Shown in pieces: positions 5,519-13,064 of a DNA stretch of 64,000 bases (its first letter is position 1; every line of letters begins with the position of its first letter). The position numbers were made by a program, and so were the translations under genes. The notes beneath the pieces were generated by a model, which was given only the letters and a program-made list of their open reading frames with translations, made no database searches and was not told the origin of the DNA. Origin of the DNA: Eledone cirrhosa (lineage: Eukaryota). The stretch covers positions 5,890,001 to 5,954,000 of the forward strand of contig OZ024740.1 in NCBI GenBank assembly GCA_964016885.1, written 5' to 3'.

Positions 5519-5587
5519 CTGGCAAGAAGGTATTCGATGCTGACGATAGCTAATAAGCTTGAAACTAGTACATCGTTCCTTTGTCAG
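5519..5587 (+). ncRNA. Type I minimal hammerhead ribozyme motif (canonical core)
   Basis: Stem I CGAUG(5535-5539)/CAUCG(5571-5575); core CUGACGA (5540-5546); stem II AGCU-AAUA-AGCU framed by U/U; GAAA (5561-5564); stem III AC-UA-GU (palindrome ACUAGU); cleavage triplet GUA (cut after 5570). Distal stem I extension 5519-5530 pairs with 5578-5587. Confidence 0.8.
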
Positions 5588-6084
5588 TGTTGAACAAAAG
5601 GGCAACGATGGTTGCTAAACACTGTACGGCTTAATTCGGGCTGTTTGTTTACAAACAAACCGAGCATGATAATAAATGTTCGGTAAACCCATACGTACAT
5701 ATATATATATGTGTGTGCATGTATGTATATATATACGTAATACTGTACGTCTGTATACATATATGTATGTACGTATATATACTTATATATATATACATAT
5801 ATATGTATAGAAATAATTTCTATAAGACTATGATTTCATATGAATGAAACAGTTCTAGTCATGTAGAAATTGTGTCTATACATAATAAAGATGCCTATGC
5901 TCTATGAATGTATTGAGTACCTTTTTTAACTGTGATTACTCTCTGACACAACTCTGGAACCTACATATTATATATGTATATATATATATATATATATATA
6001 TGTGTGTGTGTGTGTGTGTGTGTGTGTGTGTGTGTGTGTGTGTGTGTGTGTGTGTGTGTGTGTGTGTGTGTGTGCGTGTGTCCG

Positions 6085-6145
6085 TCTAACCCATGCTAGC
6101 ATGGAAAATGGATGTTAAGCGATGATGATGATGATAATGATGATG
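6085..6145 (+). mobile_element. Isolated 3' tail of the same retroposon family after (GT)n
   Basis: tctaacccatgctagcatggaaaatggatgttaagcgatgatgatgatga. Confidence 0.65.
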
Positions 6146-7829
6146 TATATATACATATACACACATTCACATTTACATAATTCAGTTGTCAGACAAGATA
6201 TATAAGATAGTTTTCAGTTTGTTGAGAAACAAATTTTAAGTTTCATTTCTGTTGAATGTATTTGTTTAATGCATCAGTGTAAAATAATGCAGTTTTGTGC
6301 ACCAGTCTGCATACTAATATACATCTATATATGCAGTGTGTCAGATATGTCTAGTGGTTGCTATTTCTGTTTGTAATATCTGTCAGAAACCTTTCTAGGA
6401 GAACAGTTAAAACAAAATACAAACCACCAATAGAAAAAAAATTCCCTTAAAATATGTAGTTTTGCTGATGAGATGAAAGTTTTTTGGGGGTTATATTGGT
6501 GGGTTCTTGGTGGCTGAGGTGAGAGGATATTGTATTGGTAAGTACTGTAAAGTATGAAGTATGATTAAATTGAAGAAACATGATGGCCTGCTTTCAATAT
6601 CTAGTGTCTACCACATTACAGAGTGGACTGGGTGCTTTTTGTCACAGCATCAACACCACAGCCTCACAGTGGGTGTTTTTCATTGACATCAACACTGGTG
6701 AGACATGTCTCTACTCCTTTTCACTGCCTCTACTCCACTCCATAAGAAATGTCTAGTGAAGGAGGAGGACTTGAAGAGAGTTGTATCTGGTGGTATATTG
6801 AGGTGGACCTGGCTTTCCATGTTAGCATGGGTTGGACAAGGAAAGTAAATCAAGGATGTGGGATGGAAGTAGGGAACACATCCTTCTTCCATATTGACTG
6901 GAGCTGGAGAAGGGGTATGAATTAGGAAAGGGGAAGAGTGGGAGGTAAAGGACAGTGGGTGGGGGGTACAACATACAAAATGAAGAAACAGGGTAACAAC
7001 AACAACAACAAGATCTAAGGTGACCCTCATTGAGAATATTAGTTTAATGCTCAGGAAATGTGAAAAGAAAAATCAGTAGAAAACGTTTTGGGTTTTACCC
7101 TTCTTTGGAAGTAAGAACATGTACACACAGCAAATTGTAGGCCAGGTCTACATGGTAATAAGACACACACTTTATGTACACATATAAATACATTGCTACA
7201 CATTCATATCTGCAAATACACACATGTGGCTATGTTGAAATAAATACATGTAGACACATATGAACATACTGTCAGCCAGGCAGGCAGGTGTAAACACATG
7301 TGGCAGACAAATATAATGTGTGTGTGTGTGTGTGTGTGTGTGTGTGTGTGTGTGTGTGTGTGTGTGTGTGTATGTGAGTGTGTGATTGTGAGTGTGTGTA
7401 TATGTATGTGTGTGAGTGTGTATGTGTATGTGTGTGTGAGTGTGTGTGTGAGTGTGTGTGTGAGTGTATGAGTATGAGTGTGTGTGTTTGTGTGAGTGTA
7501 TGAGTAAGAGTGTTTGTGTGAGTGTGTTTGTGTATGTGTGAGTGTGTGTGAGTGTATGAGTATGAGAGTGTGTGTTTGTGTGAATGTGTGTATCAAGGTT
7601 AAAGAAACTGGAGTTCAGTCCTGGAGGAAAGAAAGTTTGCAGAGCAAACATGAATTGTTGTTCACGGCTTAGCTTCAGATGATGTCAATCATGACAGTTT
7701 TAAACTTCAGTGTCGTGTTTATTTCCTTTTGTACGTAGGTAATTGAACAAGGAATTGTAATTAATAAATTTCTATTTCGACACAATGAAGTACAATAAAC
7801 TGTTGAACTGAAGTAAGCATGTAATAAGT

Positions 7830-7960
7830 GGTTCTACTTTTGGCACAAGGCCAGCAATTATCCCAGTGCATTACTGGTACTTTATTTTACTGACCCTGTA
7901 ATAATTGTTTCTACTTTTGTTTGGCACAAGGCCAGCAATTACCCAGTGCATTATTGGTAC
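7830..7960 (-). mobile_element. Two 3' fragments of the same SINE, reverse orientation
   Basis: ttctacttt(...)ggcacaaggccagcaatta(t)cccagtgcatta(c/t)tggtac is the reverse complement of the SINE 3' half. Confidence 0.7.
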
Positions 7961-8067
7961 CGCTCTTAAGCATGTAATAATAATTCTGTGGCCAAAACAC
8001 ACTCAATATCTCTCCATAAGTATATCTCCTATAATATAATTATGTACGATTTCTTTCCTCATTACAG

Positions 8068-8229
8068 TCTGATGTCTGAGAAGCCAAGAGGAACATATGA
8101 AGCCGAGGTATCGGTAGTTGAAATCTACAACAATGACATACGGGATCTCCTTAGTAAGGACTTCAGGATCAAACATGACTTGGTCACTTGTCCAGATGGA
8201 TCACTCAGTCTTCCTACTGTCACATTCAG
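8068..8229 (+). CDS. Internal exon of a kinesin motor-domain gene (kinesin-14 family, most similar to KIF25-like proteins)
   Basis: Translates (x)LMSEKPRGTYEAEVSVVEIYNNDIRDLLSKDFRIKHDLVTCPDGSLSLPTVTF(R), containing the kinesin V-S-x-x-E-I-Y-N-x-x-I-x-D-L-L motif; the YNNDI variant is what I recall for KIF25. Flanked by the polypyrimidine acceptor tttctttcctcattacAG (AG 8066-8067) and donor GTTAGT (8230-8235). 162 bp, phase 2-2. Confidence 0.88.
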
Positions 8230-8486
8230 GTTAGTTCTAACATTATTATAAAAACTACCTTCCATCCCTGCCCAACCAGCATTAATATCAACTCCACCCT
8301 CCACCAAGCACCAGTACCACCAACTTCCCCTCCACCAACCACCAACCACCAGTACCAGTAAGATACCAGCAAATAAGGAAGCCTCAAACACAGCATTTCT
8401 CAACCTTTTTACTCTTGTGGAACTCTTGAAATAGTTTCCTTGAAATGTCTCAGAGAACCATAAATATTATTATATACCATTATATA

Positions 8487-11025: not shown

Positions 11026-11835
11026 TTCCTCTATTGGATTCTGTATGTGTTTCTTTGTATGTGTGTGTTGTCATACCAATGTGTGTATTGATGTGTACAC
11101 ACACTACACACGCATGTGTATATATATATGTTTCTTTGTATGTGTATGTTTAAGTGTACACACACTACACACGTGTATATGCATACATATATGTACATCA
11201 TCATCATTTTACGATATATGTATATATATATATATATGTAAGCAAGAAAGTGTTGGTAAAACCCAGTACTTCAGTATGCAGATAGGGAGCACTCAACGAA
11301 GATATAAGTTCCGGAGTTATAATAGTGACGAAATATAAGTCAATTGCATGAACTCATAATCCTTTATTTACTGCTATATATAAGTCAACCAACATAAGTC
11401 TTTTTATATGTAAACTTTCTAAGTATTCTACTCTAACCATAATTTTCAGTACTACCACATGAATTCCTCAATTTAAGAATGGCCTGTAGTATCGAATTTC
11501 ATACTATAAACCTCAATTGAATATATATCTGACCAGGAATGCTTTTGTGAAAATCAGTCATATGGAACTATTGTCATCTTGCCTGACGGTTTGAACTTTA
11601 CAACATCACCTACCTCTTTGAGGTCAAATACCAACCCTACTAGCATCAACAAACTGACCAATGAAAATTAAGATTATTCCTGCTGACAACATTAAATTAT
11701 CATTAACAAGCTCATATGTCCCAAGGCTCTGAAACCATCAACACCAAAAACACAGAGCTGGCATATCTAACAACTGACTAACTGCCTGATGAGGTCATAG
11801 CCATTCAATGGCTATCATTGAAATATATATAGAAT

Positions 11836-12707
11836 GGACCACACGTCCAAGATGGAGGCTGCAAAGCTTGCAGCATTGAGGCTGACGTTCACCACCTCCG
11901 ACTTGGCCAAGTTGACTTGGAGGCTGATTCCCGCCAGGGCAGGAACCACCGATTGAAGGTCATGCCAGACCGTCCGTACGGGCCCGCCCAACATAGCATC
12001 TTACAGATACCAAATGTTGAGAGGAGCCGTGATACTCCGGGCGATGTGGTCAATACCAAGGGCGAACAGGAGGGGTCCCAAAGGGTCGTCCTGTTGGACC
12101 CCAGTAGCGAAGGGTATGACCGTATCAGCAGCTAGGAGCATGCTCGGGGCTCCATATGACAGGTAGGCCAGCGTGTAGGCAGAGGGGTCTCGGCTGAGGC
12201 AGACCTCAAGCAGATGATCCCGGCGTAAAGAGTTAAAGGCATTCCTCATGTCAAGCTTGACAATGAGGTACCTGGAGTCCCTGGATGCCAGTACTGATGG
12301 GCAGCTGCTGAAGAACTGCCTGATTGCATGAGCGGCCCCCTCACAGCCACCGGACACGCCGACACCCAGTTGCACCAGACTAAATTCCTCACCCAGTTCG
12401 TGTGTGACGGATTTGCAGATCACCTTGGAAGCCAGCCTCTGGAAGACATTGCCCACAGCAATGGAGCGTATGCCACCCTCTTTCTTCCTGAGAGCGGTGA
12501 TGCTGGCCGAAAAAAAGAGGCACCATGAATGAGCCTATTGGTGAACGCCACAATTGCACTCAGAAGGCGGCGCCCGGCCTCAGCAGAGAGGAGGGATGTC
12601 AACTCCTTGAGGTGGTCTGGTTGGACACCATCAACAGCTCCGCAGCTGCTAGCTGGGAAGGACCTGATGGCGGACATGATATCTGCATCAGTAGCCACAA
12701 GGAGTAT
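11836..12707 (-). pseudogene. Decayed reverse-transcriptase fragment of a CRE-clade-like (RLE-type) non-LTR retrotransposon
   Basis: Pieces in shifted frames: [93 protein letters not shown] (catalytic YLDD destroyed by TAA), ISLQVNLAKSEV. These motifs fit CRE-type RTs. Confidence 0.85.
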
Positions 12708-12718
12708 GTTTCATCACT

Positions 12719-12900
12719 ATATATATGTATATATATATATATATATATATATATATATATATATATATATATATATATACACACACACACACACACACAC
12801 ACATATATATATATATATATATATATATATATATATATATATATATATATATATATATATATATATATATATATATATATTTATATATATATATATATAT
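12719..12900. repeat. (TA)n-(CA)n-(TA)n microsatellite; similar tracts at 4752-4840, 5970-6075, 7317-7590, 10490-10549, 13149-13220, 37738-37928
   Basis: Direct inspection. Confidence 0.95.
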
Positions 12901-12920
12901 AAGTAGTAACACAACAGTTA

Positions 12921-12987
12921 GTTCACTATGCCGAGAACAATTGTTTCACCTTAGCGGATCTTCAACTCGGACTGGTCATGGTTAAAC
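12921..12987 (-). ncRNA. Inverted copy of the hammerhead-like motif
   Basis: Mirror arm of the palindrome. On the minus strand the proximal stem I is fully Watson-Crick (CCGAG/CUCGG), with the same core and the same stems II and III. Confidence 0.58.
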
Positions 12988-12997
12988 GGAACAGTCC

Positions 12998-13064
12998 GTT
13001 TAACCATGACCAGTCTGAGTTGAAGATCCGCTAAGGTGAAACAATTGTTCTCGGTATGGTGAAC
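12998..13064 (+). ncRNA. Type I minimal hammerhead-like motif (C3U core variant)
   Basis: Stem I CUGAG(13015-13019)/CUCGG(13050-13054), extended by GUUUAACCAUG/UAUGGUGAAC beyond a 6-nt bulge; core UUGAAGA; stem II U-CC-GCUAA-GG-U; GAAA; stem III AC-AAUU-GU (palindrome ACAAUUGU); triplet GUU. Confidence 0.6.

What the first reader, a model, noticed from the sequence alone, without database searches (positions are those of the whole stretch)
5540..13049. Shared non-canonical U10.1-U11.1 juxtaposition in both hammerhead families
Seen: both motifs read core-U-[stem II]-U-GAAAC (CUGACGA-U-AGCU..AGCU-U-GAAAC and UUGAAGA-U-CC..GG-U-GAAAC). Established: the usual base of stem II is a purine-pyrimidine pair, G10.1-C11.1. 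Inference: recurrence in two otherwise unrelated elements points to a structural variant class that standard descriptors requiring this pair would miss.
Basis: partly seen in the sequence, partly recalled or inferred. Interest (0 to 1): 0.7.

Follow-up and report, generated by a model that had tools for sequence, protein, structure and literature searches.

The report
Mismatched hammerheads in animal jumping repeats
Two self-cutting-RNA (hammerhead) motifs here belong to two abundant families of jumping repeats that carry a U·U mismatch where most hammerheads have a G-C pair; the mismatch is real and family-wide, but it is an already published variant that likely still cuts, so this is a new, large example rather than a new class.

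Summary
Observation confirmed. Both motifs, and their inverted twins, have U opposite U at 10.1/11.1, and this is the family norm. Genome-wide, a U..U hammerhead pattern has 53,954 matches (control 104), against 89,196 for the unconstrained pattern.

Motif A lies in a non-coding tandem repeat of about 428 bp (retrozyme type). Motif B lies in the 3' repeat of a Penelope-like retrotransposon; the window's copies also carry a C3U core change.

The variant is not new. It was reported in 2011 (PMC3088659) and in about 60,000 axolotl retrozyme copies that were shown to cleave (PMC7229834). This scan met it before in a phage (e1-6265630).

It is also not a closed class. Relatives amplified with G-C, A-U (4,082 matches) or C·A (about 960) in the same column. 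Rfam and a strict-pair filter miss these motifs, but the 2014 Penelope descriptor already allows the mismatch.

New here: the scale, U·U in end repeats of two Penelope types, and natural sibling series for kinetics. Cleavage was not tested; genomic junctions do not mark the cut site.

The parts
5535..5575 (+). Type I hammerhead, family A: U10.1 at 5547, U11.1 at 5560, 4-bp inner stem II, palindromic stem III ACUAGU, GUA triplet, predicted cut after 5570
5170..5210 (-). Inverted twin of the family A hammerhead (core starts 5205, U10.1 5198, U11.1 5185, predicted cut after 5175); stem I broken at the third pair
4903..5450 (-). About 1.3 units of the ~428-bp non-coding family A repeat (direct repeat 4903-5023/5330-5450, spacing 427), 3' end running into (TA)n
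5474..5791 (+). Inverted partial family A unit (arms 5010-5271/5474-5735, 95% complementary), 3' end running into (TA)n
5286..5293 (-). Octamer ATGCAAAT, kept 80-100 nt upstream of the core in A, A', A'' and D (one mismatch in one unit), absent from C; promoter role is a recalled resemblance to snRNA-type promoters, not tested
13015..13054 (+). Type I hammerhead, family B: U10.1 at 13027, U11.1 at 13037, 2-bp inner stem II, palindromic stem III ACAAUUGU, GUU triplet, predicted cut after 13049; C3U core change in this copy
12931..12970 (-). Inverted twin of the family B hammerhead (core starts 12965, U10.1 12958, U11.1 12948), also C3U
12898..13148 (+). Severely 5'-truncated 3' end (pseudo-LTR) of a Penelope-like element, as a fold-back (arms 12898-12990/12995-13087) between (TA)n and (CT)n(TA)n; 94% identical to the 3' end of longer copies that carry RT and endonuclease remnants

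Best explanation
The two motifs are type I hammerheads of two mobile repeat families, a tandem non-coding retrozyme-type repeat (A) and the 3' repeat of a Penelope-like retrotransposon (B), whose U·U sits in the 10.1-11.1 slot as a likely tolerated mismatch that would slow cleavage without stopping it. Shown: core, stems, palindromic stem III, family-wide U·U, covariation of the flanking pairs, element identity, (TA)n insertion. Inferred: multimeric transcripts pair two palindromic stems III into a dimer and cut after GUA (A) or GUU (B); A monomers circularise and are copied by a Penelope-type RT/endonuclease; U·U stacks on the G12·A9 pair as a one-by-one internal loop. The high copy number likely reflects which source copies happened to amplify, since the slot also accepts G-C, A-U and C·A. 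The window's own B copies are likely dead through C3U.
For: In a 10-row alignment of A, A', A'', D, D', C and C', with no gap between core and GAAA, the U·U columns are the columns that hold G-C in D and A-U in C'. Every other pair is kept in at least 9 of 10 rows and 9 of 13 pairs change on both sides, while 10.1-11.1 is unpaired in 7 of 10 (rows hand-picked from two lineages). Rfam HH9 aligns U and U to that pair. A is homologous to the G-C family D over about 240 nt at 64% (E 8e-11). C has a dispersed A-U subfamily of 4,082 matches, 98% identical to a U·U unit. A has a C·A subfamily, 79 of 100 listed of 1,214. B lies about 220 nt behind the last aligned ORF residue, on the same strand, in 5'-truncated copies. 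Precedent with activity: axolotl HHR_Amex2 has U U at the base of helix II, cleaves 22% in one hour as a monomer and much better as a dimer (PMC7229834). U-U is the best-tolerated mispair according to PMC3088659.
Against: Cleavage and expression were not shown for any family here. 5' junctions do not gather at the predicted cut site: 72 matches against 83 at a control position 6 nt away, with true junctions in 12 of 30 against 22 of 30 loci inspected. B's stem II is only 2 bp (-0.6 kcal/mol), and its minimum-energy fold uses a rival hairpin that ties up G12. None of the four window motifs folds better than shuffles (z -1.13 to +0.69). U·U recurring in six motif families is more than simple tolerance obviously predicts.
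Confidence: 0.62

Rival explanations
1. The mismatch is selected: a weakened stem II base tunes cleavage down so that multimeric or uncut template survives for reverse transcription, or host transcripts are spared, and unrelated elements converge on it.
For: U·U patterns make up about 60% of hammerhead-like matches (53,954 of 89,196). It recurs in two retrozyme lineages and two Penelope types. In lineage A both amplified subfamilies are unpaired (U·U, C·A), and one-step A-U revertants are 2 of 100 listed. Stem II energy is about equal for A (-2.5), A'' (-2.8) and the G-C sibling D (-2.7), as if a stronger inner stem offsets the lost pair. For an Anolis element, uncut RNA is the main template in vitro (PMC11167929 passages).
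Against: A-U (4,082) and G-C forms (30,016 matches of a looser pattern, control 494) amplify well in the same genome. Copy numbers count amplification bursts, not independent events. The energy match rests on three sequences. The tree does not fix the number of origins.
Confidence: 0.22
2. The ribozymes no longer cut; the motifs are relics carried along in repeats that a Penelope-type RT copies without needing cleavage.
For: No junction pile-up at the cut site. Very weak stem II in B. Penelope hammerheads are slow in vitro (PMC4209133) and cleavage was not needed for insertion in vitro.
Against: The core stays fixed (except N7) while stems I and II covary between subfamilies. B subfamilies vary at N7 and loop II but keep core, U·U and palindrome. 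A U·U retrozyme cleaves in axolotl.
Confidence: 0.09
3. The two uridines are separate extra nucleotides (the Penelope-type insertion after A9 plus one before G12), and the next pair inward is the true 10.1-11.1 pair.
For: Penelope minimal hammerheads keep an extra base between 9 and 10.1, and the 2014 descriptor allows an extra N10 and N11. For B no amplified paired sibling appeared in the first 100 listed matches.
Against: In A/D and C/C' the same columns hold G-C or A-U with no gap and equal stem length. The Rfam model places U and U on the pair.
Confidence: 0.07

Closest known systems
Axolotl retrozyme hammerhead HHR_Amex2 (Cervera and de la Pena 2020, PMC7229834; parts 2-3 of 6 and passages read, supplement not readable)
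   Same: Type I hammerhead in a non-coding tandem repeat, U U mismatch at the base of helix II, 2-bp helix III, tens of thousands of copies, a second hammerhead family without that reported mismatch in the same genome.
   Different: Here an invertebrate-type genome, units of 310-466 bp, a 2-nt loop III in A, several U·U families and also Penelope end repeats; cleavage and circles shown there, untested here.
Natural U10.1-U11.1 core variant (Perreault et al. 2011, PMC3088659; passages, sections 8 and 17, machine-read Fig. S6)
   Same: Same mismatch at the same position, often with a very short stem II.
   Different: Reported as a rare variant; the S6 layout suggests phage PaP3 (my reading of a garbled figure). 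Here it is the majority state of the genome's hammerhead-like matches.
Hammerheads of Penelope-like elements (Cervera and de la Pena 2014, PMC4209133; parts 1-2 of 4 and supplement hits read)
   Same: Hammerhead in the 3' repeat of an RT plus GIY-YIG element, small palindromic helix III variant, mostly solo truncated copies and close inverted pairs.
   Different: That paper finds a highly conserved G10.1-C11.1, an extra base after A9 and a long helix II. Family B has U·U and a 2-bp helix II, and family E has U·U and a 3-bp helix II.
Rfam Hammerhead_HH9 (RF02275)
   Same: The G-C sibling D aligns end to end at 36.5 bits, E 3.6e-8.
   Different: An A' U·U copy scores 18.5 bits and the window copies give no hit at E up to 10; all are below the gathering score of 52.

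Membership tests
Type I hammerhead ribozyme | Core CUGANGA, GAAA and NUH triplet | tested here: met
   Met by both A copies and by the B family norm (C3 in 29 of 35); the two window B copies have U3 and depart from it
Type I hammerhead ribozyme | Three stems around the core, with covariation | tested here: met
   A/C/D: 9 of 13 pairs change on both sides in 10 hand-picked rows. B: stem I 5 bp, stem II 2 bp, covariation not counted
Type I hammerhead ribozyme | Paired 10.1-11.1 (usual, but published exceptions exist) | tested here: not met
   U·U; exceptions in PMC3088659 and PMC7229834
Type I hammerhead ribozyme | Palindromic short stem III allowing dimer cleavage | tested here: met
   ACUAGU in A, ACAAUUGU in B
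Type I hammerhead ribozyme | Self-cleavage at the predicted site | not testable with these tools
   No bench data; the genomic junction test gave no pile-up
Rfam hammerhead families | Score at or above the gathering threshold | tested here: not met
   Window; eight loci including G-C and A-U siblings
Animal non-LTR retrozyme (family A) | Non-coding tandem units of about 150-450 bp, G+C under 50%, one type I hammerhead per unit | tested here: met
   Units of 422 and 466 bp (A' slightly over the range), G+C 0.36-0.38, arrays of 3-9 hammerheads; non-coding judged by eye and by no match to Penelope protein pieces
Animal non-LTR retrozyme (family A) | No LTR, primer binding site or polypurine tract | not tested
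   Not searched
Animal non-LTR retrozyme (family A) | Expression as linear and circular monomer RNA | not testable with these tools
   Only contig runs of unrecorded kind were available
Penelope-like element with C-terminal endonuclease (family B) | Single ORF with RT followed by GIY-YIG endonuclease | tested here: met
   Broken ORF pieces upstream of B match P0001 (E 1e-74 to 1e-35 in five loci); P0001's feature neighbours carry GIY-YIG and RVT_1; Pfam itself gave no RT or GIY-YIG hit for the B pieces or P0001; motif names partly recalled
Penelope-like element with C-terminal endonuclease (family B) | Hammerhead in the 3' repeat, 5' truncation, inverted junctions, microsatellite targets | tested here: met
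   Core about 220 nt behind the ORF; truncation gradient; TA or TC repeat behind 28 of 29 copies, both orientations in 5 of 29 loci
Penelope-like element with C-terminal endonuclease (family B) | Clade (Nematis or Neptune: Cys-rich linker before the endonuclease) | tested here: inconclusive
   Cys-rich linker seen (feature described in PMC8557442); no tree against reference elements; Nematis is a recalled label
Minimal Penelope hammerhead (min-HHR, 2014) | No loop III, extra base after A9, G10.1-C11.1, long helix II | tested here: not met

The most novel reading that the evidence does not exclude
An unpaired 10.1-11.1 is a repeatedly selected rate control in animal retroelement hammerheads: at least two retrozyme lineages and two Penelope types in one genome converged on U·U (one also on C·A, another family on A·A), with the inner stem strengthened to hold stem II at a marginal stability, because slower cutting leaves better templates for Penelope reverse transcriptase.
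Probability: 0.2. Interest if true: 0.55.

Novelty: new member of a known kind. Interest (0 to 1): 0.3.

Why it matters
Practically, more than half of this genome's canonical-order hammerhead-like matches carry a mismatch that Rfam and strict-pair filters lose, so such censuses undercount. Scientifically, the genome offers natural near-isogenic series (U·U against A-U in units 98% identical; U·U, C·A and G-C in one lineage) that make it easy to test how cleavage rate relates to the spread of retrozymes and Penelope elements, whose hammerhead function is still unclear (PMC8557442). The variant itself teaches nothing new about hammerhead structure.

Tried and rejected
Expression: no RNA holder listed. 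Runs X1, X4, X5 and X6 are contigs of unrecorded kind; they hold family A and mostly B, with no listed change at 10.1 and about 1% A at 11.1 in X1. The low-depth runs of other organism labels were not used as evidence of range.

Cut-site footprint: none.

Template-jump reading of A arrays next to truncated Penelope ORFs (six loci): not adopted. The ORFs differ from each other, (TA)n or unrelated DNA lies at the joints, one array is in the opposite orientation, and A also abuts B 3' ends; shared (TA)n targeting is simpler. No autonomous element carrying an A-type hammerhead at its 3' end was found in the loci fetched.

Pattern: too loose for counting (overlapping matches, control 10,820), used only to find families.

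Tree: 68 of 91 segments kept (those with the upstream octamer); U·U needs 3 changes but only 1 is forced; bootstrap not settled; order of events unresolved.

Pfam and PDB gave nothing for the family B ORF or P0001. Rfam microRNA hits are microsatellite noise.

Lunse et al. 2017 on Penelope hammerhead variants could not be read and may already show U·U in Penelope elements. The supplement of PMC7229834 and the bioRxiv supplements were not seen. Searches for prior reports; no listed title deals with cephalopod hammerheads (listing only).
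Full report
Observation. A reads core 5540-5546, U 5547, a 4-bp stem with loop AAUA, U 5560, GAAA, palindrome ACUAGU and triplet GUA. B reads 13020-13026, U 13027, a 2-bp stem with loop GCUAA, U 13037, GAAA, palindrome ACAAUUGU and triplet GUU. Each sits in an inverted duplication with a minus-strand twin.

Genome-wide counts. The genome is about 3.0 Gb; octopus-like is my recall from its repeats and was not tested. A U..U pattern has 53,954 matches against 104 for the reversed control. The same pattern with stem II free has 89,196 against 1,598. A G..C pattern with or without one extra base, and a looser 3' end, has 30,016 against 494. These are pattern matches without a stem I test.

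Element A. It is a non-coding unit of 422-466 bp with G+C 0.36-0.38, found in tandem and inverted arrays whose 3' ends run into (TA)n. Of 30 loci, 16 have both orientations and 4 have tandem spacing; 26 of 29 scored have (TA)6 or more behind the last hammerhead. This fits animal non-LTR retrozymes as described in PMC7229834 (parts 2-3 of 6 read). A 2026 preprint derives such repeats from Penelope elements (part 1 of 5 and passages). A/A' has 25,687 exact U·U matches.

Element B. Copies are 5'-truncated to different lengths. Longer ones carry broken RT, Cys-rich linker and endonuclease pieces on the same strand. These match P0001, a 667-aa protein, at about 40% identity, and the hammerhead follows about 220 nt after the last aligned residue. 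Pfam did not name these pieces; the protein atlas places P0001 beside GIY-YIG and RVT_1 clusters. So B is the 3' repeat of a Penelope-like element. Its pattern has 7,094 matches, 92 of the first 100 listed with U·U. The window copies carry U3 where 29 of 35 copies have C3. In a pairwise scan of another hammerhead only the C-G swap rescued this pair (PMC9901934 passages), so these two copies are likely inactive.

Is U·U really the 10.1-11.1 slot? For the retrozymes, yes. A is homologous to family D over about 240 nt at 64%, and D has G-C in the same columns with no gap. In ten hand-picked rows all other pairs hold in at least 9 of 10 and 9 of 13 pairs change on both sides, but this pair is open in 7 of 10. 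For B the register rests on analogy only.

Is it one class? No. A shows no homology to the B, C or E stretches tested, apart from the hammerhead layout. U·U also marks family C (310-bp tandem) and its 67% identical relative F. It marks family E, which lies downstream of a GIY-YIG ORF of a different Penelope type in 1 clear and 1 partial of 12 loci. It marks family H, which lacks adjacent stems I and III. But relatives amplified with other states: an A-U subfamily of C has 4,082 matches; a C·A subfamily of A makes up 79 of 100 listed of 1,214, beside 8 C·U, 5 G·U, 3 C-G, 2 A-U, 2 G·A and 1 C·C (counted by eye); another family has A·A. A tree of 68 of 91 segments separates D firmly but does not settle the order of C·A and U·U. 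Stem II energies of A, A'' and D are alike, -2.5, -2.8 and -2.7 kcal/mol, a hint of compensation from three sequences only.

Would searches miss it? Partly. Rfam finds nothing at gathering score in the window or in eight loci that include paired siblings. At relaxed threshold the G-C sibling scores 36.5 bits on HH9, an A' copy 18.5, and the window copies give no hit; these sequences differ at more than the one pair. The 2011 filter rejects the mispair. The 2014 descriptor allows an extra N10 and N11. Re-coded as printed it misses all 10 representatives, paired ones too. With loop III freed it finds 8 of the 9 non-B representatives, and B also needs a 2-bp stem allowed.

Prior art. [quoted passage not shown] PMC7229834 reports about 60,000 axolotl HHR_Amex2 motifs with U U at the base of helix II, 22% cleavage in one hour as a monomer, efficient cleavage as a dimer, and circular RNA in tissues. 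PMC4209133 calls G10.1-C11.1 highly conserved in Penelope minimal hammerheads, so U·U in Penelope end repeats may be unreported. However, Lunse et al. 2017 (seen only as a title in a reference list) and the 2020 supplement could not be read. Passages only were seen of PMC8557442, PMC6765202, PMC11167929, PMC7936874 and PMC6155905.

Mechanism. Shown: the anatomy and the element types. Inferred: dimer cleavage through the palindromes, slowed by the open base of stem II, and copying of A by Penelope enzymes into (TA)n. Against activity: no junction pile-up at the cut site (72 against 83 matches; true junctions 12 of 30 against 22 of 30), which also fits circular or uncut templates, and weak folds.

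Verdict. A real, abundant, recurrent feature and a sharp first reading, but a published variant in known kinds of element. Interest 0.3; the selected-attenuation reading is open at about 0.2.

Noticed in passing
window 8069-8227 +: Exon of a kinesin motor gene (Pfam Kinesin E 4.7e-5, below cut-off). If the gene spans them, one hammerhead of each inverted pair lies on its sense strand in an intron.
   Followed up: partly
window 11815-12710 -: Broken non-LTR reverse transcriptase fragment (RVT_1 E 2.4e-6), CRE-like by recall, next to the (TA)n that holds element B.
   Followed up: partly
window 4839-4878 +: 40-nt tail of family H (97.5% identical) inside the (TA)n beside element A. H has a core and a U·U stem II but no adjacent stems I and III, and is often inverted at the core; it may be one of the permuted hammerheads noted elsewhere in this genome.
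   Followed up: partly
L116 3653-5977 - (G000:C1:4681152-4683476): Stop-free 775-aa Penelope-type frame, 31% identical to P0001, about 1.3 kb downstream of a family A hammerhead; five more loci have A arrays near truncated Penelope ORFs.
   Followed up: partly
window 5286-5293 -; L118, L119, L132, L134: Octamer ATGCAAAT kept 80-100 nt upstream of the core across A, A', A'' and D, absent from C; candidate internal promoter.
   Followed up: partly
L159, L163-L174: Family E hammerhead has GAAAG and a CUU triplet with palindrome AGUACU as well as U·U; copy number not cleanly counted.
   Followed up: partly
L122 near 3364 -, L123 near 3846 +: A family with A·A at 10.1/11.1 over a strong 4-bp stem and a 7-8 bp stem I.
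   Followed up: no
window 14769-34567 and 41291-63997: Two large satellites, 49 bp x 404 and 28 bp x 811.
   Followed up: no
window 8490-9145: Three near-copies of a short interspersed repeat separated by AT-rich minisatellite, SINE-like by recall.
   Followed up: no
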